This document shows positions 1 to 15,637 of a stretch of DNA of 15,637 bases, one piece after another. The notes below the pieces were generated by a model. That model ran no database searches. It saw only the letters and a list, made by a program, of their open reading frames with translations, and was not told the DNA's origin. How positions within the stretch are numbered: the first letter of the stretch is position 1; each line of letters starts with the position of its first letter. The stretch lies in IMG/VR virus record IMGVR_UViG_2600255005_000006. One strand, given 5' to 3'. The DNA comes from a virus. Lineage: Duplodnaviria; Heunggongvirae; Uroviricota; Caudoviricetes. The position numbers were made by a program, and so were the translations under genes.

Positions 1-579
1 TTACAACGATTTGGCCGCCGGACCGTGATAACCGCACTCATCGCCGCGATAGGTCCAGGTGCAGGTGTTGGCCAGCATGATACGTCCCGGAAAAACAGCG
101 CCGTCCGTTTCCGTCGACGTGGCCAGTACAAAGGAGGCACTGACCGCGCTCAGTTCGCTGCACTGCTCGATGCGCCAGTGGCTGATCACCTCCTGCTCCG
201 GATCGGCGTCGCTGTTTCCGTTGACGAAGTTCACCGCATCCAGAAAACGGGCGTAAACCTTACGCCTGACCACCGTTCCGCCGACCAGACTCTGCAGGTC
301 TTCCGCCATCCCGGTGACCATGCCGTGCAGGTTAGAAACCGTCAGTGTCGGACGGGCAGCACTGCCCTTGCCGTTCAGTTCAAATCCCGTCCCCTGAATG
401 GGATATGCCTGATACTGCCGCCCCTGCCAGGTAACCGGCTCACCTCTTTCATTCTGCTCATTGCAGAAAAAGTAGCGATCCCCGCCTACCTCTGTCAGGT
501 CGATTTCCCAGAGCACCACGCTGGCCGACTGCTCCGCCCGAATGCATTCATTCAGTGTTTCCTGTTGTATGTCCTGCAT
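1..579 (-). CDS. Minor tail protein L (lambda gpL-like), 192 aa, C-terminally short and divergent
   Basis: Translation MQDIQQETLNECIRAEQSASVVLWEIDLTEVGG... is near-identical to lambda gpL as I recall it, up to ...TWTYRGDECGY, then ends HGPAAKSL with a stop at nt 1-3. ATG at 577-579. Confidence 0.85.
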   Translation of the reverse strand: MQDIQQETLNECIRAEQSASVVLWEIDLTEVGGDRYFFCNEQNERGEPVTWQGRQYQAYPIQGTGFELNGKGSAARPTLTVSNLHGMVTGMAEDLQSLVGGTVVRRKVYARFLDAVNFVNGNSDADPEQEVISHWRIEQCSELSAVSASFVLATSTETDGAVFPGRIMLANTCTWTYRGDECGYHGPAAKSL

Positions 580-583
580 CAGA

Positions 584-916
584 TCACCACTTCGTCAAAC
601 TGACACGAAAAATCGGTATAGGTGATATGTTCTGTCGCTGACCACGTTCGACACACCACTCTGATTTTTCTGTTAATACCCGGCGGGCGCCAAAAAAAGA
701 TTTATAGCCTTCATGCCGGGCTAAAAATTTTTCAAATGAATCACGTTCATTCGCCTCAACTTTGAAATCACAGGTAAAAACGCGCAGAGAATGATTAAGT
801 CCATTTGGACTTCGTTGCTCATAACCATCGCCAAGTCTTACAATTTTTATCGATGGTTTATTTTCTGTTTTCATTCCATCCTCTGGTAACCAGTGAAATT
901 CTTCCGTATTAGCCAC
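584..916 (-). CDS. Minor tail protein M (Phage_min_tail family, distant lambda gpM homolog)
   Basis: 110 aa; motif [16 protein letters not shown]...[14 protein letters not shown] aligns with lambda gpM VRFGDGYSQRAPAGLN...LESFLEEHGGWKSF. GTG start at 914-916 overlaps the tape measure stop; SD GGGGGA 8 nt upstream. Confidence 0.8.
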
Positions 917-3900
917 TTAACATTCCCCCATCACGTCGCATATTTAACAGAGTGCCCTGCACCCGCTGATCAACCATCCCCATAAGTGCTTTTATTGCCT
1001 GAGGGCCAACCTCTCCATTCTGGCCGTCATTTTGAATAGTGATTTGGTATACAGGGGCATAGGTAATATCTCCGCCTCCATTACCACTTTTACTATTAAT
1101 AGCTCTGACACCAAGAGAACCATCGGAAGTTCGTGTTAATGGCATAATGGCTTCCGGTCCAGCCTCACCAAAAACACCCGCCCCTTTTGCAAAAGCAAAA
1201 AATTGCGGGGAATCATAAATACCGTTCGAATACGTGCTCAATGACGGAGACTCATAAACACCGCCCTTTGCATTCGGAATAAATTTACTAATAGCACTCC
1301 CGATAGTTCCTAAAATCCCCCCAGAAGAACTGTTACTAATGCTGTCGAAAATCCCAGTAATTGAAGCCTTTAATGCTATTCGACTAAGATCCGAAATCAC
1401 GGAAGTAGCGAAAGAACGAAAATTTGCCTTGCCTGTCGTGACAAAATCACCCAGCGCATCGGTCATCCCATCAAACATCTGAGTCGTGGTTGATTTTATC
1501 TGCTCACTGATATCCTTAGTGTCATCCAGCCAGTTATTGAATCCCTGGGAGGCACCACTAACCCAGTCTCCTGCCTGAATATCGACCTGCTCGTTTTTCT
1601 GTCTGACAATTTCTTTTTCTCGTTCCAGAGCATCATTCAGAGCCTGCATTTTCTCCTGAAAAACATGATCTGACATTCCACGGGATTTATCTGCATAGTC
1701 ACGTTCAAGTTGCAGACGCTGGTTGTTATATTCACGTTCAATCCGCAGTAATTCCTGCTGACGTTGCTGATTTTTATCGCCAAGCCCATAACCAGCAATC
1801 TGAATATCATACCCCTGCTGACGATTATCAATCGAAGCCTGCAATGAATCACGCCATGCGGCTATTTCGGTTGATTCCTTGATTAGCCTGTTATTTTTTT
1901 CAATCGCAACATTTTTCTCCATCAACGCGGTTATTTCTTCCCGGTGTAAGAGAAGCGATTTCTGATCCTGGGTTAATTTCGATGACGGTCGTGACTCCAG
2001 GTCGGCAATCTGCTGACGCCACTTAACCAGTTCCTGTTCAGAGGAACTTAATTTAACGGTCAATTCAGCTTGTGAACTTAGTAACGCATTCTGTTGATTC
2101 AGATGATCAATCATTCGTTGGGCAGCATCATCCGAATAACCTTTCGCCTTTGGTAGCTTTGGATCTTTATAACGCTCATTTATTTGAGCGACAAGATTAT
2201 TATATTCTTCCTTTGAATACTGACTCTTTAGCTTTTCCAGTTTTGCAAGTTCACTGGCTCTCTGCTGCTCCCGGGTCTGATATTGTTTTGAAAAGGCATC
2301 TGCTTTCTGTCTGAGTTCAATTCCTTCCTGTTGTCGCTTGTTGTAATCGGTTATTGATGAATTTAGTACGTCCTGAGCAATTTTTTCTGCTTGAAGTACG
2401 CCCAATTGCTGCTTTAATCGTGCCAGCCTTTTATTTTGAGCGCCGCCATCCCCAATGCCACCTAACCCGAAAGCTCCGGGTCGGGTATTTTTTTCTATTT
2501 CATCAATTTGATGGAGAACATCTGAGATTTTTTGATCAAGGGAGGCATCACGACCAATATCCAGCATGGAATCCCATGCCCATTTTGCGGACTCAGCGAC
2601 AGCTTTCCATGCAGTCTCAAGATAACCAAGATTTTCTTTAATCTGGTTGGTGCGCTGGATCATTGAGGATGAGTATGCTTCTGTCGCAATGCGGGCGGCC
2701 TCCTGCTGGTTCCCTTCATCCTGTAGCGCCTTAATCTGGTTATAAGTCGCAATTGTCAGAAAATGGTACTGATCATTAAGTTTTGATATGGCACTGACAG
2801 GATCCTTTGCAATTTCATTGAAGTCATTAACCAGTTGTTCGGTTGATATTCCTGTTACTTCGCTCGTTTTTACTATCGCTGTCGTCACTTGCTCCAGCGA
2901 ACTGCTCGCTACCTTTCCCGAACGCACAAGCTGGTTTAATACTGCCGCCGCAGCGCCAGTTGTCGAATCAGCCGCATTCCCGGCACGTTGAGCTATATCG
3001 GCCAATTGCCCGCTGGTTGTCCCCAACTGATTTCCGGTAAGAATAAGAGATTTATTAAATTCGTCCTGCTCCTGAGAGCCTTTATAGTAAGCCAGCCCTA
3101 AGACGCCAACGGCTGCTGCGGCCAGGGTAAAAGGATTAATTAATCCCAGCACATAAGAACCAACACCTTTGATCGCCGGGCCAATCCCACCGAACATATC
3201 TTTTAGCTGGCCGCCCTGCTGCATTAACACCATAAAAGGCGACTGACCAGTGGACAACCCAACAACAATATCCGTCATTTGTGCAGGCAACATGCGCATA
3301 GCAAAAGCCGTTTGTTTTGCCGACATTCCGGTTTTGCTTAATTGAGATTGAGTAACCTCAAGCTCACTCCGCATAGCACGAAGTTTTCCAGAAAGTTCCT
3401 CATACATTTCAGGAGAGAGCATCCCCTTAGCTTTTGCTTCATTGAGCTGTTTCTGTTGTTCTACCAGACGATTAAAAGCAGTTCCGACAGGGTCAAGTTG
3501 AGCAATCAGACGTTGCAAAGCAGCAACCTGTTCATCATGCGCTTTTGCTGCTTCTCGCTCTGCCTGAGCCTCTCCGGTAAGCTCTCGCCGTGTTTCCTGT
3601 ATTTTTCGGCTATAATTCTCAAACTGAGAACCATTTATTTTCCCGGATGCAAACGCAGCATTAAGTTCATCCTGCTGTTGTTCAAGATTTCTTAGCGCCG
3701 CAACCAGAGGGTCGATCTTGTCCAGCATTCTTTGAAAGGCCTGAGCCTGCGATTCCTGCTGGGCGGCAGCAAGTTTTCCGGCCTTCTCGGCTTCTCTCTG
3801 CGCTTGCGCAACCCCGCTCAATTCCTCTGTGGTTTCATTAAGTTTACGGACAAGAAATTCATATTCTTCTTTATCAATAAGCCCTTTATCGAAAAATTTC

Positions 3901-4142
3901 TTTAATTCAGAATAGCGTCGACCGACAGTATCAATTGCGGCACCAACTGGATCAATAGCTGCTTTTAATTTTGCGAGCGCGTTCTTCTCATCTTCTGTTG
4001 CCTTAGTCACTTTCCCTGCGCTATTTGCAGCAGTTTCCCCGGCCTGCGTCATTTTGACTAATGAGGAGGTCAGATTGTCAGCATTATTTTTTGCTCCAGT
4101 GCTATCAATAATTATTGCGAGACGCGAGGTTTGCTCTGCCAT
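909..4142 (-). CDS. Tail tape measure protein (gpH-like), 1077 aa
   Basis: Very long ORF between chaperone and M genes; coiled-coil-rich N-terminal half, hydrophobic glycine-rich central segment, C-terminal region typical of tape measure proteins. ATG at 4140-4142 with SD GGAG 9 nt upstream. Confidence 0.9.
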
Positions 4143-4165
4143 TTATTAAAACTCCAGACAACAAA

Positions 4166-4185
4166 AAGCCCACCGAAGTGGGTTT
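4166..4185 (-). terminator. Terminator-like hairpin (CCCAC-UUCG-GUGGG followed by CUUUUUGUUGU) just upstream of the tape measure start
   Basis: Read on the minus strand in the 128-bp gap between the T-like ORF and the tape measure gene; short GC stem, UUCG tetraloop, U-run. Confidence 0.3.
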
Positions 4186-4270
4186 CAGGCGACATAATAG
4201 TAGATATAGCGATTACGAGGCCACGCAATGCTTTTCTCCAGGAGCATCATCGATTTAATTAAAGACACCA

Positions 4271-4540
4271 TCACATCTCTGTAACAGAGTGTACGTAATT
4301 AACAACTACACACACTGCTCCTGAAAATAACTGGTCATCCAGTGCAAAGATCACTGCTTCAAACTCATCGCGCTCAATCAATACCGGATGAGTGGCTAAA
4401 TATTCATTTATCTCTGTCAGAGATATAGGCAAAGGCACCCCGGTCATTCCAGCATAACGTCGGGCACGGGATATTACCGAATAGGCGTACAACAATTCCT
4501 TAAGCACCGGGTCTATTTCTGGTTCCGGTATCGGTGGCAA
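4271..4540 (-). CDS. gpT-like tail assembly chaperone extension segment; no credible own start, in frame with the G-like ORF behind its TAG stop
   Basis: The ORF-track start is TTG with no SD. The frame stays open from the G stop (4613-4615) to 4271 (113 sense codons). Position between chaperone and tape measure matches the G/GT arrangement. Confidence 0.45.
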   Translation of the reverse strand: MPPIPEPEIDPVLKELLYAYSVISRARRYAGMTGVPLPISLTEINEYLATHPVLIERDEFEAVIFALDDQLFSGAVCVVVNYVHSVTEM

Positions 4541-4612
4541 CCTGAGTTTTTCTCGCTTCCATCTTGCCTTTTCCCCCTTTCTCCCCGAACTCCGATAACC
4601 ACCGCTGGGCGG

Positions 4613-4627
4613 CTATGGCTTTTTTAT
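4613..4627 (-). promoter_or_regulatory. Putative -1 programmed frameshift signal: slippery heptamer A_AAA_AAG (4625-4619) two codons before the TAG stop, followed after 6 nt by a stem-loop (4612-4599)
   Basis: Zero-frame reads AUA AAA AAG CCA UAG; downstream CCGCC-CAGC-GGUGG can form a 5-bp hairpin. The heptamer is the same as the one I recall at the E. coli dnaX frameshift site. Confidence 0.4.
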
Positions 4628-5074
4628 CGTATCCTGCTTCTGCAGCTCTTTACCCTGGGCGATGCTGGCTGCTTCTGCAAGGATCTGCCAGTACAACTCT
4701 GGATTCTGCTTAAGCAGCGCGATCCCTCGTTCTGGCGTATATTCCAGTGCAACCTCAGCACCATTAACCAGTTCACCAACCCCTTTCCAGTCTTTCAGCA
4801 GATAACGAGCAGCATTATCAATGAGTAAATCATCAACAGAATCTACCTCGGAAACCTTTGAAATATCAAACTCCTTCGTTCCGACGTGCAAACTGGCATC
4901 CATTTTCTCAATGTGACGACGGATTAATGCATTACGGGAGCGATACTGATCGTTATCGCTGCTTGCCACCAACAGTTTTAACCCGTCTACAGGTTTTAAG
5001 TCCTTCATTGGCGTAAACCAGCGTTCTCCACCGATGATAATTTTCTGATTAAGAATAAACATCCATAACCTCAT
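4613..5074 (-). CDS. Tail assembly chaperone (gpG-like by position), 153 aa
   Basis: ORF immediately downstream of the major tail gene and upstream of the tape measure gene; ends in a slippery heptamer. ATG 5072-5074 has SD AGGGGG 8 nt upstream; alternative ATG at 5060-5062 has SD GAGG. Confidence 0.7.
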   Translation of the reverse strand: MRLWMFILNQKIIIGGERWFTPMKDLKPVDGLKLLVASSDNDQYRSRNALIRRHIEKMDASLHVGTKEFDISKVSEVDSVDDLLIDNAARYLLKDWKGVGELVNGAEVALEYTPERGIALLKQNPELYWQILAEAASIAQGKELQKQDTIKKP

Positions 5075-5083
5075 TCAATGCGT

Positions 5084-5110
5084 CCCCCTGTAGTGCAGTA
5101 CCACAGGGGG
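5084..5110 (-). promoter_or_regulatory. Strong stem-loop (about 11 bp) between the major tail and G-like genes that sequesters the G-like gene SD
   Basis: Minus-strand RNA CCCCCUGUGG-UACUGCACU-ACAGGGGG; the 3' arm contains the AGGGGG SD for the ATG at 5074; no U-run follows. Confidence 0.35.
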
Positions 5111-5122
5111 AATAACGGAAAA

Positions 5123-6085
5123 TCAACTAATCGCATCAGCACTGGCTTTTGCGATCACGGCAGTCGGGGAGCATTTTTTTCTGGTTATCGTAGGTGCTTC
5201 ATCTGCTGCGGTAATGCTCAATTGAACCTGGATAATGTCAGTATTACCCCCATCAGGCCATTCACCTGACACCTGAACCTTCGGGAAACTGAAAGTGTAT
5301 GCCCCCTCTCCATTCGAAAGCGTGAAGCTGAACGGAACTGTTTCTCCAGTCAGTGTTTTACTCCAGATTTCCCACGCGGCTTTAGACCATGAAAGCGTCA
5401 CCGTACCGGACGGTGTAAAAGTAGTCGGAATATTTGCTCCTGCATAAGGCGAGCCAGTCCCGATACAACGCTGTGTCTGGAGTTTGTTATCGAACTGAAT
5501 ATCAAAACTGTCGATACAAAAACCGTTACCTCCGGCAACACCATTCAGGCTTACTGCTGAAACCTCCTTAAACGAATAGCGTAACTTTCCTGCACTATCC
5601 ACAGGTTCGCCTTTGATAAAATTCGTATCATCGGCCTTTGATTCCCAGCCCAGCCCGGCAAAGGTTACGGTCGCTGTAATATCGCCGTCGTTAGGGATCT
5701 GCATTTTCCATGAGCCAACCTGCGCTCCTCTGACGACAGAGGCAATTCCGACATCGGACGCATAGGTCGCCAGAGAAAATGTTATTCGCTCATTCCCCAT
5801 TGTCAGAGAATCGCCTGACCATTCCGCGCCGAAACAGGATGCAAGAAAATCATCATGTTGACCCCAGCGAAATTTGGTACCAACATCACCGCCGACATCC
5901 ACAGTGCCAGGCGTCGCCCCCTGAGCCATCCGGGAGCCACCAATCTCATTATTTTCGCCTTTATTCTGGGTGGGTTTTACTCCCCAGCTTGTGCGTTTTA
6001 ATAAACTCCAGTCACCACTTGCTGGCGTAGTGCCTGCAACTGTCTCCCGGATAAATGCCGAGATAACCTTTGCACCTGAACTCAC
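5123..6085 (-). CDS. Major tail (tube) protein, 320 aa
   Basis: Position between tail terminator and chaperone genes. GTG start at 6083-6085 with SD AGGAGG 5 nt upstream. Confidence 0.8.
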   Translation of the reverse strand: MSSGAKVISAFIRETVAGTTPASGDWSLLKRTSWGVKPTQNKGENNEIGGSRMAQGATPGTVDVGGDVGTKFRWGQHDDFLASCFGAEWSGDSLTMGNERITFSLATYASDVGIASVVRGAQVGSWKMQIPNDGDITATVTFAGLGWESKADDTNFIKGEPVDSAGKLRYSFKEVSAVSLNGVAGGNGFCIDSFDIQFDNKLQTQRCIGTGSPYAGANIPTTFTPSGTVTLSWSKAAWEIWSKTLTGETVPFSFTLSNGEGAYTFSFPKVQVSGEWPDGGNTDIIQVQLSITAADEAPTITRKKCSPTAVIAKASADAIS

Positions 6086-6111
6086 AGGAGCCTCCTATGT
6101 CATTAATTGCG

Positions 6112-6504
6112 CTAGAGCGCGCGATATGGAATTTGAAGATTAAGCTGGAACCAGCCATTCTTTTCGCCGACGGCTATTGAGGAAACAGCCTGGTAACTGA
6201 GACGATCGTCATCCTGAAACTCAAACAGTTCCCGCAATTTATCGGCTGTCTCAGTAATGAGTTTTGAACCAGAACCTGCGGGGACAAATAACTGAATAAT
6301 GATTATCCCCGTGCGATAAACAACCGGCCCCGCGCCAATTTCATTAACTCCAGCCTGCCCGGGAATATTACTTAACCGCGCCCAGATTAACTTACCGGAA
6401 GGATCGAACGTTGGCGCGTTCGGATACAATACGTCTTTTCCATCAATAATCGTCTGTGCCGTCATTCTGGAAATAACCGTATTTCTGATTTCAGTAAACG
6501 TCAT
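6112..6504 (-). CDS. Tail terminator / tail completion protein (gpU-like by position), 130 aa
   Basis: Small ORF directly upstream of the major tail gene; its ATG overlaps the previous stop (ATGA). Confidence 0.55.
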   Translation of the reverse strand: MTFTEIRNTVISRMTAQTIIDGKDVLYPNAPTFDPSGKLIWARLSNIPGQAGVNEIGAGPVVYRTGIIIIQLFVPAGSGSKLITETADKLRELFEFQDDDRLSYQAVSSIAVGEKNGWFQLNLQIPYRAL

Positions 6505-6881
6505 TTGTAAGCCTGTAAAACACCATGAAAAGCGTTGGCATACACGCCAGTTGGCGCTTGTTGTGAATGACCGTTTTCAAGAGCCTCTGCATAAGGAAGG
6601 TTATTCTGGATATAAATAACTCCGTAATTTGCAGCTTTCGAAATAACCCCGATCCCACGCTGAACAGCAATCGTACCGTTCGGATCCACGTTATCAGATA
6701 TACCAAAATCGGGATGCTGTAACGACACCAGGTTGTTATTTCTGAAACGTCCGGTATCAACCGGAGCAGCAATATCAATAGCAGTAAGAATCTGAATAGC
6801 GATGTAGCGAATCTTCAGCCCTACATCTTCCTCAATCATCCCGGCAAATATTGACGGTTCTATATCCCATGCCTTTGCCAT
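6501..6881 (-). CDS. Neck protein (HK97 gp10-like by position), 126 aa
   Basis: SD AAGGAG 7 nt upstream of the ATG; the previous gene's stop abuts the start. Family assignment is from memory and position, not a search. Confidence 0.55.
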   Translation of the reverse strand: MAKAWDIEPSIFAGMIEEDVGLKIRYIAIQILTAIDIAAPVDTGRFRNNNLVSLQHPDFGISDNVDPNGTIAVQRGIGVISKAANYGVIYIQNNLPYAEALENGHSQQAPTGVYANAFHGVLQAYK

Positions 6882-7265
6882 TTACGCTCTCCTTAACTGG
6901 ATAGAGTAAACTGATGCGGAAGGATCTACACTTGCTGTAATTACCTCGTATCGTTGTAACTGCCTTGATACAGGATCATAAATCTCAATAATATGGTCGA
7001 CAGCTGGTTTATCCGTAACCTCGCATACCAGAGCGGTTAATTTAAGGTCACCATGCAAAATATTAATCCCATCAATTCTGCCCAGCTTATAACGTGTCAA
7101 CACGCCTCGCCCGGTATAGATTTCGGTGGATTCGCCGCCAGTTTCCGTCACAGGATCCCAGTGCCGGTGCGTAACGTAAGAACCAGAAAAATCACTCACG
7201 GCGTCCGCTAAATCCTCATCAAAAGCAGCGGCAACCTCTGACTGAATCTCTTCACGAAGCCCCAT
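6882..7265 (-). CDS. Head-tail joining / head closure protein (by position), 127 aa
   Basis: ATG overlaps the preceding TAA (TAATG); G-rich SD. Function inferred from synteny only. Confidence 0.5.
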   Translation of the reverse strand: MGLREEIQSEVAAAFDEDLADAVSDFSGSYVTHRHWDPVTETGGESTEIYTGRGVLTRYKLGRIDGINILHGDLKLTALVCEVTDKPAVDHIIEIYDPVSRQLQRYEVITASVDPSASVYSIQLRRA

Positions 7266-7660
7266 TATCCCCCCCTCACAACCCTGACTTGTGAGCGACT
7301 AAGTCCGTACGGTTTCAGCAGTGCTATCGCAAGCTGTAAATCGGGTTCAAGCAATGCAGTGCTGTTTGCTGGCAACTCAGAAAATGATTTCGATACACTG
7401 ACCCCGTCAGCCGACACGGCTTTACTGATAACAACGCCAGAATCATTTTTCTGCTGAAACAACTTACCGAATGAGGCAATTCTGGCTGCATATGCTCCCG
7501 CAAGTTTTACCTCTTCCGGAATACGGGATGGGTTAATTTTCAGGTTGAAGCCATTAAGCCAGGCATTAGCCATTAAAACAGCTTTATTTTTAGCGTTCTC
7601 ACTCGTCCAGGCGTTCCCAAACGCATTATCAACGTCATCACAGGTCACGTAAGTGATCAT
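7265..7660 (-). CDS. Head-tail connector / head completion protein (by position), 131 aa
   Basis: ATG at 7658-7660 with SD AGGAG 8 nt upstream. Function inferred from synteny only. Confidence 0.5.
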   Translation of the reverse strand: MITYVTCDDVDNAFGNAWTSENAKNKAVLMANAWLNGFNLKINPSRIPEEVKLAGAYAARIASFGKLFQQKNDSGVVISKAVSADGVSVSKSFSELPANSTALLEPDLQLAIALLKPYGLSRSQVRVVRGG

Positions 7661-7663
7661 GTG

Positions 7664-7840
7664 TTACTCCTGAGTTTTCCAGCCCATAGCCTTCCAGTTG
7701 TCAACTTCATCAGGATGAACATTAGCGATAGTTGGTGCGCCGGGAAACATCTGATAATCGGTCACCATAACCACTAACTCAATTTGCGTTTTTTGTGCGG
7801 CTTCACGCTGTGCTCTTTGCTCTTTAGTTAATCCGGCCAT
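7664..7840 (-). CDS. Small hypothetical phage protein, 58 aa (absent from the ORF track)
   Basis: Hand translation MAGLTKEQRAQREAAQKTQIELVVMVTDYQMFPGAPTIANVHPDEVDNWKAMGWKTQE; ATG at 7838-7840 preceded by a G6 SD; its TAA overlaps the SD of the next gene; fills the capsid-connector gap. Confidence 0.4.
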   Translation of the reverse strand: MAGLTKEQRAQREAAQKTQIELVVMVTDYQMFPGAPTIANVHPDEVDNWKAMGWKTQE

Positions 7841-7857
7841 ATGCCCCCCATTAAAAA

Positions 7858-7876
7858 TGGGGCCGAAGCCCCGTTT
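7858..7876 (-). terminator. Intrinsic terminator-like hairpin 10 nt after the major capsid stop (GGGGC-UUCG-GCCCC followed by AUUUUUAAU)
   Basis: Read on the minus strand; likely a partial terminator raising capsid relative to downstream expression. Confidence 0.4.
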
Positions 7877-7882
7877 GAATGT

Positions 7883-9022
7883 TTAACCAAGAATCAGACA
7901 ACCATGTGCCGGCTTCACTGATGAAACACCCCATGCCAGTCCAACTTCATAGCGCACCTGGCGATACTGACGATACAGTGCAATCTGGAACGTAATCCCT
8001 GAAATCGGGTCCGTAACATTCATTACATCATCAGCATTATCGCCACCTTCCGGCATTGCCGGAGTACGGGATGCCAGCAGAAACGCGTTGCGATCAAACG
8101 CCATATTTGCAGTAAAGGAGCCAACAACTGTGATTGCAGTATCATCGGCCAGATCCTGACGCAGTCCGGGCGCTGCAAGAGTAATCAGATTGCTGGTCGC
8201 TGCTGCCACAACATACTGATTCGGATCGCCAGCGAACGTAACAATCTGACCTGCAGAAATACTCCCCGAACCAGTATCAATGGAAATAAGAACATCGCCT
8301 TCTTTTTTCTCGCCATTCACGAGATAACCAGTTGCAGCAACCTTTGGCGCTCGTTTTACACCTGCCGAACTGTGAATATTGAATCCCTCCAGACGCCCCA
8401 ACACGCCCTCACGCAGTAGCTGTTCAGTGCCGGATTCATTCACTTTAAACAGTACAGACTGTTTTCCGCGCAAATTAGCAATGGCAGTGGAGCCAAGCAC
8501 CATCTGCAGATCGGTTGTCGGTGCGCCGTTATCCTCCAGAACCTGACGAGCCAGAGCAGCATCAGAAAGATCATCTTTAACACCAAACGGCGTTGTCCCT
8601 GCGGTTCCCACGGCGCGGGAAGCACCGAAATACAACGCACCAAGATCAGCCTCAACCTCGTTTGCAAGGGCGCGAAAAGCCTGCTTGAACTGATCAGCCA
8701 GAATGGTGTTGTAAGTCCCTGAAGGGCCAAGAGCCAGTTGTTCTTCACCATTCCATTTAACCGGTGCCATTTTGGATTTAGTAATTTTCACATCAACAGT
8801 GCCAATATTTTGATCACCGGTATTCGGAGCTGACGGCCCCGGTACGATATCTTCGGTTTTCGCCTCAGGCGCAACTGGCGCGGTTACCGTCTGATCTTTT
8901 GCTGCGGCGTCAGCTTTTGCGTTTTTTGCTACCGCAGGGATAAAACCTACCTGCTCACGGGATACAATATCCAGGGCGGTATAAATAGTCGGGATCAACC
9001 CGGTCAGGGTATTTCCAGCCAT
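7883..9022 (-). CDS. Major capsid (coat) protein, 379 aa
   Basis: Large ORF downstream of the scaffold-like gene and upstream of the neck genes; ATG at 9020-9022 with SD AAGGA; followed by a terminator hairpin. Confidence 0.85.
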   Translation of the reverse strand: MAGNTLTGLIPTIYTALDIVSREQVGFIPAVAKNAKADAAAKDQTVTAPVAPEAKTEDIVPGPSAPNTGDQNIGTVDVKITKSKMAPVKWNGEEQLALGPSGTYNTILADQFKQAFRALANEVEADLGALYFGASRAVGTAGTTPFGVKDDLSDAALARQVLEDNGAPTTDLQMVLGSTAIANLRGKQSVLFKVNESGTEQLLREGVLGRLEGFNIHSSAGVKRAPKVAATGYLVNGEKKEGDVLISIDTGSGSISAGQIVTFAGDPNQYVVAAATSNLITLAAPGLRQDLADDTAITVVGSFTANMAFDRNAFLLASRTPAMPEGGDNADDVMNVTDPISGITFQIALYRQYRQVRYEVGLAWGVSSVKPAHGCLILG

Positions 9023-9121
9023 AATTAAATATTCCTTAAAAATTTGCGTAATTAGTGAATAGATGGAGTAATGAGCTATCCAGCCCTGACACCAGCTCCC
9101 ATCCGGAAGCTGACAAATGTG

Positions 9122-9886
9122 TTAATCAACAATTGTGATACCGTCTTTCAATGCGTTTTGCTTACCTGCAACATCCAGTGCATCAAAAGCAGAGCGTTTC
9201 ATCGTTTTCTGACCAACATCATGCTGTGTCGGACGGGAGCCGCCGCCATTGTTGCCACTGGCTTTCAGGATGTAGTCTTTCTGAGGGTAATTTTCGACGA
9301 GGAACTCCAGCACCTCATCAAACTGCGCCAGTTCGCCAGGCTTCGCGCGGGAATAAATTTTGTTGCCGGAAGCGTCATAAGCAACGATCTTCCCTTCTTC
9401 CACTTTGAATGCCTGCCCGAAGCGGGCTTGTAATAAATCTGCCGGGATCGCAATTTTATCGGCAATATATTTTGAACCCGCAAAACTACCGCCAATCATA
9501 GAATCGTAAAGCTGCGTCTCCAGCATCTGAGAGCGTTGCTTTTCTTCATCTAATTGCTGCTGAAAATTTTTCGTAATTTCTGCCTTAACCTGGTCAACCT
9601 GTCCCGCATCGATCAGCTTTTTCTGGTCGATTTTTGACAGCATTTCCAGTGCCTCGATCGCCTTCTTCGGGTCTTCGATAGCGGCAAACTTAGCCAGTTT
9701 TTCCTCTGCAGCTTCTTTAGCCAGGCGATGATTTTTTGCCTCGCCATTAAGCTCTGTAATTTTTTTTATCGCCAGCGGTGCATCGAAGCCGATTTCTTTA
9801 CCATCGTCGTGCACATAAACTGGCAGGCCAGCAGTATCAATTTCTGCGTATTGTTTTCCGTTAATCTCGACCGTTTTCAGTTTCAT
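9122..9886 (-). CDS. Putative capsid scaffolding protein, 254 aa (start MKLKTVEINGK)
   Basis: Acidic, helix-rich ORF between the MuF-like and capsid genes. The ORF-track GTG extension to 9958 is rejected because it runs through the upstream terminator hairpin. Confidence 0.5.
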   Translation of the reverse strand: MKLKTVEINGKQYAEIDTAGLPVYVHDDGKEIGFDAPLAIKKITELNGEAKNHRLAKEAAEEKLAKFAAIEDPKKAIEALEMLSKIDQKKLIDAGQVDQVKAEITKNFQQQLDEEKQRSQMLETQLYDSMIGGSFAGSKYIADKIAIPADLLQARFGQAFKVEEGKIVAYDASGNKIYSRAKPGELAQFDEVLEFLVENYPQKDYILKASGNNGGGSRPTQHDVGQKTMKRSAFDALDVAGKQNALKDGITIVD

Positions 9887-9940
9887 ATTAGTACCTGGTT
9901 TAAGTCTTCCGACAGTTACGCTGCTCACCATCCGGATCGC

Positions 9941-9970
9941 AGCAATAAAAAAGGCCACCCGAAGGTAGCC
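9941..9970 (-). terminator. Intrinsic terminator between the MuF-like and scaffold genes (GGCUACC-UUCG-GGUGGCC followed by UUUUUUAUU)
   Basis: 7-bp GC-rich stem with one mismatch, UUCG tetraloop, U6 run, read on the minus strand. Confidence 0.5.
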
Positions 9971-9990
9971 TGTTGTAATAAATGATTTAT

Positions 9991-11017
9991 TTAAATCCCT
10001 GCTTTTCTGAATACCTGTGCATCACGCTCACGGAGTTGCTTCAGCGTCAGCCATTCGCCTTTATCGGTGTAAAATTCATCTGGCGACATACCGCCATCCC
10101 GAATCAGCTTTGCCCGGGTTTCCCCCACAATCTGTTTTTGTCTGGTGTAAGGCTGACGCAAAAACCATTCCCTGTAGGTTGTATCTCCGGCCACCACGCC
10201 ATCCATGCTGGCCCGCTCAGCCGGGGAAATATCACGAACATCAATACCCAGTTCCTTCGCTGATTTCAGAATGAACGTTTCCGTTGAGCGGCAGCAGAAA
10301 TGAATTTTTCCCGGCCCATGCAAATAAGGCACACTGTGACCTACAGGTTTATTATCCAGCGTATATTTGAGGCGATCCCTGATTCGACATTGTGGCGTAG
10401 TACGATTATCAAGCGTTGATAACCATTGCTTACCCTTAATCAAATCATTATTCGCGCTGGCAAAACTCTCACGGGCAGTAGCAGCAAGATGTCCAACCGC
10501 TGTTTTTGCAATGCTGGCCGCATTAGCCCGGCTCATCTGCAATGCACCATCCTGAAATCCCTTGCTGACATGTCCCCGAATTTTTCTTGCGATCTGCTCA
10601 TTGGTATCCCCCAGCAAAAAACCCTGACGCACCGTATTTGTTATGCGTCTGAGCCGATCCGCCTCAAGATCCAAGGCCCACTCACTGAGCAGTCGTCCCT
10701 GGAATGGTCGCGCCATTGCAGCGGCGTAAAGTGCATCAAGAAGATATACCAACCAGAGGGTGAACATCAGCAACAAAATCAGGTAGCAGAGAATCAAACA
10801 GACTTAACTGATAACCAGCCTCATAAATTGCCAGCTCGTTCAGCTCTCCGGAGAGACTGGTAAACATGCTGTTAATAGCAGCGCGGTTAACCTCTCTGAC
10901 ACTCGCCAGAAGTGACTCCAGGCGCGTAACGGTAAAACTACCAGGATCGAGGCTGTCCAGTGCTACCAGCAGGCGAGCTGTAAGCTCCGCATCGCTGTCA
11001 TTCAGTATTTTCACCAT
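9991..11017 (-). pseudogene. Head morphogenesis protein, Phage_Mu_F / SPP1 gp7 family, split by a +1 frameshift into an N-terminal ORF (10736..11017, 93 aa) and a C-terminal ORF (9991..10797)
   Basis: The C-terminal part carries a MuF-like motif WLSTLDNRTTPQCRIRDRLKYTL...HFCCRS. The N-terminal ORF has ATG at 11015-11017 with SD GAGG. The frames overlap over 10736-10797; the in-frame ATG at 10714-10716 has no SD. Combined length about 335 aa fits the family. Confidence 0.65.
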
Positions 11018-12885
11018 TCTGGCAGCCTCGCCAGTTGCCTGAAGCGGTATGTGGTTTCCGTCGTCCTGGCCGTGCTGACCAGCCGCTCACTGCCGTCATC
11101 CGCTGCCACGGTCAGGCGAAGCATAAAGCTCCCCCCCTTCACCACCTTCGGCGTGTCCCAGCGCGCCAGCACCTGGTATTCCCCGCTGTCTGCGGTGACT
11201 TCTGCAGTCAGGTGCTGCACCGCGGGCGGCGTGACACCGTTCACCGTTCCGCTCTGGTCGCCGTCAAAGTACGCCCCGTTATCCACGATGGCTTCTTTCT
11301 CCGGTACATGCTGCACGGCAGTGATGGCATACGTGCCGTCATCGTTCTCACGGATACTCACACAGCGGAACAGGCGCTGGCGCAGCATCGGCAGCTTCAG
11401 CCCCCACACGCTGTATCCGGCAACGCCGTCAGGAACACGGCTCACTTTCACCTTCACACCGTCGGTGACGGACTGGACCTCCACGCTGACCGGATTCCCC
11501 TGCCCGTCAACCAGGCTTATCAGCGTGGTGCCGGAGGATGGCAGCGTGATTTCACGGTCGAGCGTCAGCGTCCGGGTCTGGCTGTTCACCGCCAGCACAC
11601 GCCCACCGATGCTGATACCGGCATAGTCATCATCGCAGATTTCAATGACATCCCCCGGTACATGGCGAAGCCCTTCAGCACCCACGCTGAAGTCCACGGT
11701 CTGCGTTTCCAGCAGCTCCGTTTTAATCAGCCACAGCCCGGCGCGGTGTGCCTGCCCCCGACTGGTACAGCCAAAGGCATCCATCTTCGTGACGTTACGG
11801 CCGTAACGGGCAATGGCCTGCGTATCCTCCACGAGCTCTGTCGCCGTCTCCCAGCCGTTGTTCGGGTCAATCCAGTTCACCTCAACGGCATTATGGCGGT
11901 CCTTCAGGGCGCTGAAGCTGTAGCGGAACGGCGCGCCATCATCCGGCATCACCACATTACTGCGGTTATAGGTCCACACCTTATCTGATGGTCGGTCCTG
12001 CACGAACGTCAGCGTCTGCCCGTTCCATACCGGCATACAGCGCATCGCCGAGCAGAAATCACTGAGCACATCCCACGCCTTGCGCTGTGTGGTCAGGTAC
12101 GCATTACAGGTGATGCGCGGCTCCGTGCCGCCAAAGCCGTCCGGCACTGACTGGTCGCAGTACTGGCCGATGACATACAGCGCCCATTTATCCACATCCG
12201 CCGCACCAAGACGTTTCCCCATGCCGTAGCGCGGATGGGTCAGCATATCCCACAGACACCAGGCCATGTTGTTGCTGTATGCCGGTTTAAACGTTCCGTC
12301 CCAGATACCGCTGTATTGCCGCGTCTGCGGGTTATAATTCGACGGCACCTGCAGAATACGCCCGCGCAGATGATAATTACGGCTCACCTGCTGACTGCCG
12401 AACTGCTCCGAGTCCACCTGCACGCCGACCAGTGCCGTGTTCGGGTAGCACTGTTTCACATCGATAATTTCGGTGTATGACGACCAGAGCGTTTTGTTCT
12501 GCAGCTGGTCTGTGGTGCTGTCCGGCGTCATCCTGCGCATCCGGATACTGAACGGGCGCGGCGGCAGGTTATCCACCACCACCGAGGCCAGATACTGTGA
12601 AGTGGTTTTACCCTTAATGGTGATGTCTTTTTCCGTCACCCAGCCACCGTTACGTTGTATCTGAACCAGCAGGCGGACTTCCGATGGATTCCTGTCCCCC
12701 TTTGAGGTGGTTTCCACCAGTGCCTGCACGCCGAAAGTAAAACGCAGACGGTCAATGTTTGCCGACGTGATGGTCCGGGTGATCGGCGTGTCATATTTCA
12801 CTTCTGTACCGAGCACCGTCTCGGAGCCGGAGGATTCAAATCCCTCCGGCGGTGTCTGCTCCTGCTCACCGGCCCGGAACACCAC
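11011..12885 (-). pseudogene. Internal fragment of lambda-like host specificity protein J (roughly lambda residues 55-690); lacks its N-terminus and C-terminal receptor-binding region
   Basis: Translation VVFRAGEQEQTPPEGFESSGSETVLGTEVKYDTPITRT... is near-identical to lambda gpJ as I recall it. Homology runs upstream to about 12927 (SEGNTNISGVT) and ends at about 11025 (RFRQLA, then RLPEW-stop versus lambda LGNYRL). Confidence 0.9.
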
Positions 12886-12929
12886 CGTGACGCCGGATAT
12901 ATTGGTATTCCCCTCACTGCCCGATAGGG

Positions 12930-13340
12930 TTGGCGGGTGGGCTAAACTTATACCAATACGCGCCGAATCCGCTGGGGTGGATTGACCCGTTAGGACTTAA
13001 ATGCTGGAGTTCGGCCAGACGTGATTACTGGAAAGCAGAAGCTAAAGCAGCGCCAAAAGGCATGTATTCATCCGTGAATATGTTAAGAATGCGTTTTGGT
13101 CTTGCTCCAAGAATTCGAGTTAAAGAATTCCATTTTAAAACAGGTACAGAAAGAATAAGAAACGTATCGCTAGAACTAAACCATCGTCATTGGCCTCAAC
13201 GCGATGGTAAGCATGTTGATATTCCATATAACCTTGAGAAAGTGACGCCCTGGGAACATGCAGCTAAAGATCCCTATAGACATCCAGGTAGTACGTTACT
13301 TGAAATACTACAAGACATTGGAAACTATAAGGGGTTTTAA
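12930..13340 (+). CDS. Orphan Rhs C-terminal toxin tip: Rhs core-end motif (PIGLAGGLNLYQYAPNPLGWIDPLGL) followed by an HNH/colicin-DNase-like domain of about 110 aa; no bona fide start codon
   Basis: Rhs PxxxxDPxGL boundary motif at 12921-12998. Downstream ELNHRHWPQRDGKHVDIPYNLEKVTPWEH resembles the colicin E9 HNH motif [28 protein letters not shown]. In-frame stop at 12888-12890; AT-rich codon usage. Confidence 0.65.
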   Translation: MAGGLNLYQYAPNPLGWIDPLGLKCWSSARRDYWKAEAKAAPKGMYSSVNMLRMRFGLAPRIRVKEFHFKTGTERIRNVSLELNHRHWPQRDGKHVDIPYNLEKVTPWEHAAKDPYRHPGSTLLEILQDIGNYKGF

Positions 13341-13341
13341 A

Positions 13342-13722
13342 ATGAGACTGGCTGAATTTATGCAATCTGATATTTATGTTGATTTTCTTAATGACTTGGA
13401 TAAGTCTCTTTCAGAAAAGATAGATAGAAAATCAAAGGTTTATGATGTTGTTGTTAACCTTATGGAAAAATGGTTGGAATATGCCTCGATGTCTTTTGAT
13501 GATTTGCATTGGGTTATATCAAATTGCAGGTCAGATTCAATAAGTTACATTGTAAAAAAACAAGTTACTTATACAGAGGCTAATGGTGGGAAAGATAATA
13601 TCATCAATCAAGCGCCTAAGATAAACTTCCCTATTGGTCATCTGATAGAGTATTATTTATTATCGAAAAGACCGAACGATTTGCTTGATTATGTGAACAA
13701 AAATTCGGATTCCCGGTTCTAA
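13342..13722 (+). CDS. Putative cognate immunity protein, 126 aa
   Basis: ATG 1 nt after the toxin TAA with SD AAGGGG 7 nt upstream; very AT-rich; followed by a terminator. Function inferred from the toxin-immunity gene arrangement; no recognisable family. Confidence 0.55.
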   Translation: MRLAEFMQSDIYVDFLNDLDKSLSEKIDRKSKVYDVVVNLMEKWLEYASMSFDDLHWVISNCRSDSISYIVKKQVTYTEANGGKDNIINQAPKINFPIGHLIEYYLLSKRPNDLLDYVNKNSDSRF

Positions 13723-13818: not shown

Positions 13819-14145
13819 TTAATTATCTTTCAGCACTTCCCACATCCCGCTTTTTATTCCCTTCACCACCCGTTTAACCTGATAAAGTTCCTCCCGCAGT
13901 TCCTGTACCTCGTCACTGTCAGCGATGATGGTCAGGCACCCCTCCGAAATCTTCACCGTCACACCCCGCCCGGTATCAAATCCGGCTTCTTTCAGCCAGT
14001 CGCCCTTGAGGTGCAGGCTGGGGTGTTGTGAATAATACCGGGCTATACCGGTTGTGCGGTCCTGGTGGCGGGCTCTGACATAGCCGACTTTATAGCGGCG
14101 CTGTGTTTTGGAAATGACGTCCGCATTACTGTCGTTCTGCGGCAT
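13819..14145 (-). CDS. SymE-family (type I toxin-antitoxin, AbrB-fold) toxin homolog, 108 aa
   Basis: LHLKGDWLKEAGFDTGRGVTVKISEGCLTIIA aligns with E. coli SymE [32 protein letters not shown] as I recall it. ATG at 14143-14145 chosen; the ORF-track extension to 14325 is antisense to the PTS gene and rejected. Confidence 0.7.
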   Translation of the reverse strand: MPQNDSNADVISKTQRRYKVGYVRARHQDRTTGIARYYSQHPSLHLKGDWLKEAGFDTGRGVTVKISEGCLTIIADSDEVQELREELYQVKRVVKGIKSGMWEVLKDN

Positions 14146-15637
14146 TATGTTAGGGATTGGTAGTTCCCTGAGTAGCCATGATGTCATCACCCTCATCCCG
14201 GCATTGGGTAACCCCGTGTTGCAGGCTATCTTTACCTGGATGAGTAAAATTGGCTCGTTCGCTTTTAGCTTCCTGCCGGTGATGTTCTGTATTGCGATCC
14301 CGCTTGGTCTGGCACGTGAAAACAAAGGCGTAGCGGCGTTCGCTGGTTTCGTAGGTTATGCGGTGATGAACCTGGCGGTTAACTTCTGGTTGACCAATAA
14401 AGGCATTCTGCCAACCACCGATGCAGCTGTTCTGAAAGCCAATAACATCCAGAGCATTCTTGGGATCCAGTCGATCGACACCGGGATCCTCGGTGCGGTG
14501 ATCGCCGGTATTATCGTCTGGATGCTGCATGAGCGTTTTCATAATATCCGCCTGCCGGATGCGCTGGCATTCTTCGGCGGTACGCGCTTCGTGCCAATTA
14601 TCTCCTCGCTGGTGATGGGGCTTGTCGGTCTGGTGATTCCGTTAGTCTGGCCGATTTTTGCCATGGGTATTAGCGGCTTAGGTCATATGATCAACAGCGC
14701 GGGTGATTTCGGACCTATGCTGTTTGGTACGGGTGAACGTCTGCTATTGCCGTTTGGTCTGCATCACATTCTGGTGGCATTAATTCGCTTTACTGACGCG
14801 GGCGGCACGCAGGAAGTCTGTGGACAAACCGTCAGCGGCGCACTCACCATCTTCCAGGCGCAATTAAGCTGCCCGACCACTCACGGTTTCTCTGAAAGCG
14901 CCACGCGTTTCCTCTCCCAGGGTAAAATGCCTGCGTTCCTCGGCGGTCTGCCAGGTGCTGCATTAGCCATGTATCACTGTGCTCGCCCGGAAAACCGTCA
15001 TAAAATTAAAGGCCTACTGATTTCTGGCCTGATCGCCTGTGTTGTTGGCGGCACCACCGAACCGCTGGAGTTCTTGTTCCTGTTCGTAGCGCCAGTTCTC
15101 TACGTCATCCACGCGCTGTTAACCGGCCTCGGCTTCACCGTCATGTCTGTGCTCGGTGTCACCATCGGTAATACCGACGGCAATATCATCGATTTTGTGG
15201 TGTTCGGTATTTTGCATGGCCTGTCGACTAAGTGGTACATGGTGCCAGTGGTGGCGGCAATCTGGTTTGTCGTTTACTACGTCATCTTCCGTTTCGCTAT
15301 CACCCGCTTCAATCTGAAAACACCGGGTCGCGACAGTGAAATCGCCAGCTCAATCGAAAAAGCCGTTACCGGTGCGCCGGGTAAATCGGGTTACAACGTT
15401 CCGGCAATCCTCGAAGCCTTAGGCGGTGCCGACAATATTGTCAGCCTGGATAACTGCATTACCCGTCTGCGTTTGTCAGTGAAAGATATGTCGCTTGTTA
15501 ATGTGCAGGCGCTAAAGGACAATCGGGCAATTGGCGTAGTACAACTTAATCAACATAACCTGCAGGTTGTTATCGGGCCGCAAGTTCAGTCAGTAAAAGA
15601 CGAAATGGCTGGTCTGATGCGTACTGTTCAGGCATAA
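14108..15637 (+). CDS. malX: PTS EIICB component, glucose/maltose family (malX-like), 5'-truncated by about 20 codons relative to canonical EIICB N-termini
   Basis: IIC domain then IIB domain with active-site motif NCITRLR; aligns along its length with E. coli PtsG but is longer (at least 509 aa versus 477), fitting MalX (about 530 aa). In-frame stop at 14093-14095; only TTG 14108 or ATG 14114 available as starts. Confidence 0.8.
   Translation: MEMTSALLSFCGIMLGIGSSLSSHDVITLIPALGNPVLQAIFTWMSKIGSFAFSFLPVMFCIAIPLGLARENKGVAAFAGFVGYAVMNLAVNFWLTNKGILPTTDAAVLKANNIQSILGIQSIDTGILGAVIAGIIVWMLHERFHNIRLPDALAFFGGTRFVPIISSLVMGLVGLVIPLVWPIFAMGISGLGHMINSAGDFGPMLFGTGERLLLPFGLHHILVALIRFTDAGGTQEVCGQTVSGALTIFQAQLSCPTTHGFSESATRFLSQGKMPAFLGGLPGAALAMYHCARPENRHKIKGLLISGLIACVVGGTTEPLEFLFLFVAPVLYVIHALLTGLGFTVMSVLGVTIGNTDGNIIDFVVFGILHGLSTKWYMVPVVAAIWFVVYYVIFRFAITRFNLKTPGRDSEIASSIEKAVTGAPGKSGYNVPAILEALGGADNIVSLDNCITRLRLSVKDMSLVNVQALKDNRAIGVVQLNQHNLQVVIGPQVQSVKDEMAGLMRTVQA

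What the first reader, a model, noticed from the sequence alone, without database searches (positions are those of the whole stretch)
9991..11017. MuF-like head morphogenesis gene split by a +1 frameshift
An N-terminal ORF (10736..11017) with a good start and a C-terminal ORF (9991..10797) carrying the conserved MuF motif overlap in different frames. The only in-frame ATG of the second ORF has no SD. Together they make about 335 aa, a normal size for this family. This points to an inactivating indel, a sequencing error, or a programmed shift.
Basis: partly seen in the sequence, partly recalled or inferred. Interest (0 to 1): 0.45.

Follow-up and report, generated by a model that had tools for sequence, protein, structure and literature searches.

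The report
Truncated, frameshifted prophage head gene remnant
The two overlapping reading frames are one well-known prophage head-assembly gene, split by a single extra base seen only in this genome assembly; the gene had already lost its start in a deletion, so it is an ordinary dead gene or a sequencing error, not a programmed frameshift.

Summary
ORFs 10736..11017 and 9991..10797 (minus strand) are two pieces of one MuF-family (PF04233) minor head gene, with the second in the +1 frame.

The cause is one extra T at 10738/10739 (ATATCTTC[T]TGATGC), not the A4 run. Deleting it gives 341 aa that are 100% identical to residues 30-370 of the 370-aa Rac-type prophage protein WP_001317036.1.

The extra T is absent from all 204 complete E. 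coli genomes carrying that 60-mer, from 15 IMG/VR contigs and from 2 species-representative genomes. Homologs down to about 63% identity are single proteins of about 370 aa.

Homology stops at 11035, where an internal lambda-type gpJ fragment (11029-12922) is fused. The first 29 conserved codons, the portal gene and the terminase genes are gone. The "good start" is internal Met30, and its GAGG is made at the junction.

The source is Escherichia sp. TW11588 (AEMF01000001.1), the only contig found with these products. Against the closest prophage, 11 kb shows 1 substitution but 6 one-base indels. That pattern favours a consensus error (about 65%) over a real mutation (about 30%). A programmed shift is effectively excluded. 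Interest is low.

The parts
10739..11017 (-). Codons 30-122 of the minor head (MuF-like) gene, in frame 0. It begins at internal Met30 and is followed by a premature TGA at 10736-10738.
   Evidence: 100% identical to WP_001317036.1 residues 30-122; phrog_241 positions 39-124.
10738..10739 (-). TT where all homologs have a single T. One of the two is the extra base that causes the +1 frame change.
   Evidence: Alignment A1 and BLAST differences. The variant is found in 0/204 complete E. coli genomes, 0/15 IMG/VR contigs and 0/2 species representatives.
9991..10737 (-). Codons 123-370 plus the stop of the minor head gene, in the +1 frame. This piece contains the Phage_Mu_F domain.
11027..11035 (-). 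Breakpoint between the gpJ fragment and the head gene. ACTGG microhomology spans 11031-11035. Base 11028 (A) matches neither parent and creates the GAGG that looks like an SD.
   Evidence: Three-way comparison of the window, gpJ (L009) and the head gene (L005).
11029..12922 (-). Internal fragment of a lambda-type tail tip gene J (about codons 54-684 of 1161). It replaces the portal gene, the terminase genes and the first 29 codons of the head gene.
   Evidence: (PF24801, PF13550, PF24421).
9952..9971 (-). Terminator-like hairpin plus T run, directly after the gene's stop codon.

Best explanation
The locus is the dead remnant of a Rac-type prophage minor head (MuF/SPP1 gp7-like) gene in Escherichia sp. 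TW11588. Two lesions are shown. First, a deletion joined an internal piece of a lambdoid gpJ gene to codon 28/29 of the head gene. This removed the gene's conserved first 29 codons, its native start, and the upstream portal and terminase genes. Second, one extra T at 10738/10739 shifts the frame after codon 122 and creates a TGA. By inference, the extra T is most likely a consensus or base-calling error of this assembly. It is one of six private one-base indels in 11 kb that otherwise carry a single substitution. It is not a programmed frameshift, and no functional head protein is expected either way.
For: Single-base insertion. Deleting it restores 341/341 identity to WP_001317036.1 residues 30-370. 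The insertion is private to this assembly: 0/204 complete E. coli genomes, 0/2 species representatives including E. ruysiae, 0/15 IMG/VR contigs and 0 metagenome contigs. The 93-aa, 258-aa and 624-aa products occur on only one contig, AEMF01000001.1. 5' truncation and gpJ fusion. The lost N-terminal 29 aa are conserved in homologs of 64-88% identity. In intact prophages the gene sits between the portal and scaffold genes. Error signature: against E. coli Yu5, window 15-11035 has 1 substitution away from the breakpoint and 6 one-base indels (the two further mismatches, 11028 and 11030, lie at the breakpoint). Three of the indels are homopolymer under-calls (A8>A7, C6>C5, C5>C4) and three are extra A's. 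Five of the six fall in coding sequence. From my own knowledge, spontaneous indels in E. coli run at about one tenth of substitutions. At that ratio, 6 or more indels among 7 events has a probability of about 6e-6. No promoter-like site lies in 9800-13000.
Against: Without reads, the error cannot be told from a genuine mutation. The 10738 insertion turns T into TT and is not a long-homopolymer event. A gene that is already truncated and not under selection is exactly where real frameshifts accumulate. Two of the homopolymer variants do occur in a few other complete genomes (7/596 and 1/1068), so some of the six indels could be real slippage polymorphisms. I could not verify the sequencing platform of this assembly (one search failed).
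Confidence: 0.65

Rival explanations
1. The extra T is a genuine, recent inactivating mutation in strain TW11588. The gene was already truncated and without function, and it is decaying further as part of a defective prophage.
For: The remnant lacks terminase, portal and the head gene's own start, so selection is relaxed. Rac-type prophages often decay at this gene, as the ParB-N::minor head deletion chimeras in many E. coli contigs show (P0020 on 81 contigs). The insertion is not in a long homopolymer.
Against: Six indels against one substitution over 11 kb is very unlike natural divergence. Three of the six are classic homopolymer under-calls. No second assembly carries the change.
Confidence: 0.3
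2. The split is a programmed +1 ribosomal frameshift at UCU-UGA, a 'shifty stop' like that of prfB. Reading from the junction ATG, it would produce a 341-aa protein.
For: An in-frame stop lies directly at the shift site, and the downstream frame is +1. An SD-like GAGG sits 8 nt before the ATG at 11017.
Against: The site is not conserved. All close and distant homologs are single ORFs without the extra T. Sequence inspection shows no CUU-U type re-pairing: the P-site codon UCU would have to re-pair on CUU. It also shows no SD-like stimulator a few nt upstream. Local RNA structure is no better than shuffled sequence (z = 0.10). The ATG and its SD are accidents of a deletion junction.
Confidence: 0.02
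3. The two ORFs are a natural two-gene arrangement: separate N- and C-terminal proteins.
For: None beyond the existence of the two ORFs.
Against: Most of the 120 best homologous clusters are 361-371 aa and cover 97-100% of the 370-aa query. Annotated intact copies are single CDSs. The second ORF has no SD before any in-frame start.
Confidence: 0.01

Closest known systems
Rac-type prophage 'phage minor head protein' WP_001317036.1 (370 aa) of E. coli, Pfam PF04233 Phage_Mu_F / PHROG 241 'head morphogenesis'
   Same: After one T is removed, the window encodes residues 30-370 at 100% identity. The downstream neighbours are the same: DUF6651 scaffold-like gene, P22-type coat gene, tail genes, ydaY and the tape measure gene.
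   Different: The first 29 codons and the upstream portal and terminase genes are missing and replaced by a gpJ fragment. One extra base splits the frame. The remnant lies next to malX rather than trkG.
SPP1 gp7 / Mu gpF minor head proteins (the founding members of the family)
   Same: They share the Phage_Mu_F domain and the gene position directly after the portal gene in intact relatives. From my own knowledge, these proteins are portal-associated and are packaged into the head.
   Different: Similarity is at domain level only, and no function was tested here. In this window the partner portal gene is absent.
ParB-N(ynaK)::minor head deletion chimeras in other E. coli Rac remnants (e.g. P0020, 438 aa)
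   Same: The same gene has lost its 5' part to a deletion that fused it to another prophage gene.
   Different: The fusion partner (ynaK instead of gpJ) and the breakpoint differ. Those chimeras are in frame and carry no extra T.
prfB-type programmed +1 frameshift (CUU UGA C)
   Same: A stop codon sits at the point where a +1 shift would be needed.
   Different: There is no slippery CUU-U, no upstream SD-like stimulator and no conservation.

Membership tests
Phage_Mu_F / SPP1 gp7 minor head (head morphogenesis) protein family (PF04233) | Significant match to the Phage_Mu_F domain profile above Pfam's gathering score | tested here: met
   the C-terminal ORF scores 39.4 bits and the intact homolog 38.5 bits, against a cut-off of 29.6; phrog_241 'head morphogenesis' at E = 1e-180 for the intact protein.
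Phage_Mu_F / SPP1 gp7 minor head (head morphogenesis) protein family (PF04233) | Gene located directly downstream of the portal gene in the head-morphogenesis module | tested here: not met
   The feature is met in intact relatives, which run portal (DUF4055), minor head, scaffold, coat. In the window the portal gene is deleted and a gpJ fragment lies upstream. The sequence is therefore a family member by descent, but the module is broken.
Phage_Mu_F / SPP1 gp7 minor head (head morphogenesis) protein family (PF04233) | A single uninterrupted ORF encoding the whole protein | tested here: not met
   a frameshift after codon 122 and loss of codons 1-29.
Phage_Mu_F / SPP1 gp7 minor head (head morphogenesis) protein family (PF04233) | Incorporation into procapsids and interaction with the portal | not testable with these tools
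   This needs biochemistry.
Programmed +1 ribosomal frameshift sites (prfB type) | Shift site conserved among homologs, so that the two-frame arrangement is the ancestral state | tested here: not met
   0/204, 0/2 and 0/15 homologous loci carry the extra T. Distant homologs are single ORFs.
Programmed +1 ribosomal frameshift sites (prfB type) | A slippery P-site codon that can re-pair in the +1 frame, plus an upstream SD-like stimulator | tested here: not met
   The sequence is GGUAUAUCUUCU-UGA. UCU to CUU re-pairing is poor, there is no AGGGGG-like element, and no unusual structure is present (z = 0.10).

The most novel reading that the evidence does not exclude
The extra T is real, and the junction-created GAGG/ATG at 11017 drives translation of the remnant. 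Low-level +1 slippage at the UCU-UGA stop would then yield an N-terminally shortened MuF-domain protein that the host or a co-resident prophage has co-opted.
Probability: 0.01. Interest if true: 0.3.

Novelty: already known. Interest (0 to 1): 0.07.

Why it matters
It matters little biologically. The gene is a 100% identical copy of a catalogued E. coli prophage head gene, broken in a defective prophage.

The practical value lies in annotation. The two ORFs should be merged and flagged as one truncated, frameshifted pseudogene. This assembly region also shows an indel-rich, substitution-poor error signature, so frameshifts elsewhere in AEMF01000001.1, especially in prophage repeats, should not be read as biology without the reads.

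Tried and rejected
- **A4 run as the lesion:** rejected. The alignment places the indel 37 nt downstream, at 10738/10739.
- **Programmed +1 frameshift:** rejected on conservation, sequence context and RNA structure.
- **Same junction or frameshift elsewhere:** the frameshift 32-mer and the junction 30-mer gave 0 hits in metagenome contigs. The junction gave 0 hits in IMG/VR. No complete E. coli genome spans the junction (0 places with at least 80% coverage). Exact-protein look-ups returned only the source contig.
- **Sequencing platform of TW11588:** I tried to confirm it from the original genome paper, but the paper is not held. I therefore make no platform claim.
- **Strain identity:** my first recollection that the assembly was strain TW09308 was wrong. 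PMC7716201 Table A1 assigns AEMF to TW11588, clade IV.
- **Promoters:** no sigma-70-like promoter was found in 9800-13000.

Full report
**Observation**

On the minus strand there is a 93-aa ORF (10736..11017, ATG) and a 268-aa ORF (9991..10797, TTG). They overlap by 62 nt, and the second is in the +1 frame relative to the first. The second ORF carries a Phage_Mu_F domain (PF04233, 39.4 bits against a cut-off of 29.6). The two ORFs match consecutive stretches of one PHROG head-morphogenesis profile: phrog_241 positions 39-124 and 126-365.

**What causes the split**

Megablast against 5,426 complete E. coli genomes found 713 genomes in which one match covers at least 80% of window 9700-11300. 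The listed best hits are annotated there as 'phage minor head protein' next to a 'DUF6651 domain-containing protein'. In these intact Rac-type prophages the gene is 1,113 nt (370 aa, WP_001317036.1). It lies between the portal gene (DUF4055) and the scaffold-like gene. The wider order is trkG, ynaK, terminase, portal, minor head, scaffold, P22-type coat, tail genes, ydaY, tape measure, J.

The nucleotide alignment shows one extra base in the window. It reads ATATCTTC-T-TGATGC where every reference has ATATCTTC-TGATGC, which places the extra T at 10738 or 10739. Deleting it yields 341 aa that are 100% identical to residues 30-370 of WP_001317036.1.

**Is the two-frame arrangement natural or programmed?**

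It is neither.
- A 60-mer centred on the site matches 204 complete E. coli genomes. All match at 59/60 with a gap, and none carries the extra T.
- A pattern that allows either state found only the single-T state in the two species-representative genomes that have it, Shigella flexneri and Escherichia ruysiae, and in 15 IMG/VR contigs.
- The frameshifted 32-mer is absent from the metagenome collection.
- In a search of 5.8 billion proteins, homologs down to about 63% identity (Salmonella, Citrobacter, Klebsiella, Raoultella, Erwinia, Enterobacter, Leclercia) are mostly 361-371 aa and cover 97-100% of the query.
- In the alignment they run without interruption through the site, GIS(S/P)DA(L/V)YAA.
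- The site itself (GGU AUA UCU UCU UGA) offers no good +1 re-pairing and has no SD-like stimulator.
- The local RNA folds no better than shuffled sequence (z = 0.10).

Similarity to the head gene stops at window 11035. From 11029 to about 12922 the same strand is an internal fragment of a lambda-type tail tip gene J. It covers roughly codons 54-684 of 1161 and matches PF24801, PF13550 and PF24421.

The three-way comparison shows J sequence up to ...CAACTGGCG and head sequence from GGCTGCCAGAATGG.... The parents share an ACTGG microhomology, and one base (11028, A) matches neither. That base creates the GAGG that looks like a Shine-Dalgarno sequence 8 nt before the ATG at 11017. This ATG is Met30 of the intact protein.

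The lost 29 residues (consensus MxTxNExLRDESIAHAIWISRYSTGVANR) are conserved across homologs of 64-88% identity, so they are real coding sequence. Portal and terminase genes are absent from the remnant. No sigma-70-like promoter is detected between 9800 and 13000.

**Source**

Exact-protein look-ups of the 93-aa ORF, the 258-aa called C-terminal ORF and the 624-aa J chimera each return a single contig. That contig is NCBI GCA_000208585.2, AEMF01000001.1, and it is identical to the window. AEMF is Escherichia sp. TW11588, cryptic clade IV (PMC7716201, Table A1). This fits the 93.7% identity of the window's malX to E. coli.

**Artefact or mutation?**

Against the closest prophage (E. coli Yu5), window 15-11035 differs by a single substitution away from the junction (9312) but by six one-base indels:

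| Site | Change | Location or effect |
|---|---|---|
| 691 | A8>A7 | C-terminal third of the M-like tail gene |
| 4329 | +A | -1-frame extension of ydaY |
| 4577 | C6>C5 | -1-frame extension of ydaY |
| 4582 | C5>C4 | -1-frame extension of ydaY |
| 9054 | +A | intergenic |
| 10738 | +A | this finding (minor head gene) |

Sequence contexts are, and the effects on coding sequence are. Five of the six indels disrupt coding sequence.

The non-homopolymer insertions are fully private: 10738 in 0/204 genomes and 9054 in 0/761. The homopolymer variants recur only rarely: 7/596 and 1/1068.

From my own knowledge, spontaneous indels in E. coli occur at about one tenth the rate of substitutions. At that ratio, six indels to one substitution is about a 6e-6 event. 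Most of the six are therefore best explained as consensus errors in a repeated prophage region of an older assembly. I could not verify the sequencing platform. A genuine mutation in an already dead gene also remains plausible. I put an error at about 0.65, a real mutation at about 0.30, and the rest at 0.03 or less.

**Comparison with known systems and verdict**

By sequence this is a member of the Phage_Mu_F / SPP1 gp7 minor head family, identical to a catalogued E. coli prophage protein. It fails the features of an intact, functional member: it is not a single ORF, it lacks the native N-terminus, and it has no portal neighbour.

A parallel decay route is seen in other E. coli. There, deletions fuse the ParB-like ynaK gene to the same head gene (for example P0020, 438 aa, on 81 contigs).

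Nothing here is new in kind. The correct annotation is one truncated, frameshifted pseudogene within a chimeric prophage remnant, and the frameshift should be re-checked against reads.

Noticed in passing
window 4613-4630 (minus strand), extending to about 4150: A classic A_AAA_AAG slippery heptamer (4619-4625) lies two codons before the ydaY stop. In E. coli Yu5 the -1 frame continues for about 125 aa, up to the tape-measure gene. This is a lambda G/GT-type programmed -1 frameshift of the tail assembly chaperone. In the window that -1 ORF is broken by three one-base indels (4577, 4582, 4329).
   Followed up: partly
window 691, 4329, 4577, 4582, 9054 (plus 10738): Six one-base indels against one substitution over 11 kb, relative to the closest prophage (Yu5). 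Three are homopolymer under-calls and three are extra A's. The 691 change frameshifts the C-terminal third of the M-like tail gene (584..916). This suggests consensus errors in this assembly region.
   Followed up: yes
window 11011-12922 (minus strand): An internal fragment of lambda-type gpJ (about codons 54-684 of 1161) has breakpoints on both sides. Its ORF reads across the junction into head-gene sequence and ends ...ARLPEW*, overlapping the ATG at 11017 (ATGGTGA).
   Followed up: yes
window 14108-15637 and 13819-14325: Homology to malX starts at 14123, which is codon 27 of E. coli malX. malI and the malX promoter region are replaced by the island. A SymE-family type I toxin gene (PF08845) abuts or overlaps the truncated malX start on the opposite strand.
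   Followed up: partly
window 12930-13722 (plus strand): A 136-aa ORF begins with an Rhs-core-end-like motif (...PNPLGWIDPLGL). It is followed by an overlapping 154-aa ORF. Neither has a Pfam hit. They look like an orphan Rhs C-terminal toxin tip with its immunity gene.
   Followed up: no
P0020, P0026, P0015 and similar proteins: Many E. coli contigs encode in-frame ParB-N (ynaK)::minor head chimeras of 390-463 aa. Deletion into the 5' part of this head gene is therefore a recurrent decay route of Rac-type prophages.
   Followed up: partly
window 9952-9971 (minus strand): A strong terminator-like hairpin (AGGCTACC-TTCG-GGTGGCCT plus a T run) sits between the minor head gene and the scaffold-like gene. 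It lies inside what should be a late operon, and the region is nearly identical in the intact prophages aligned here.
   Followed up: no
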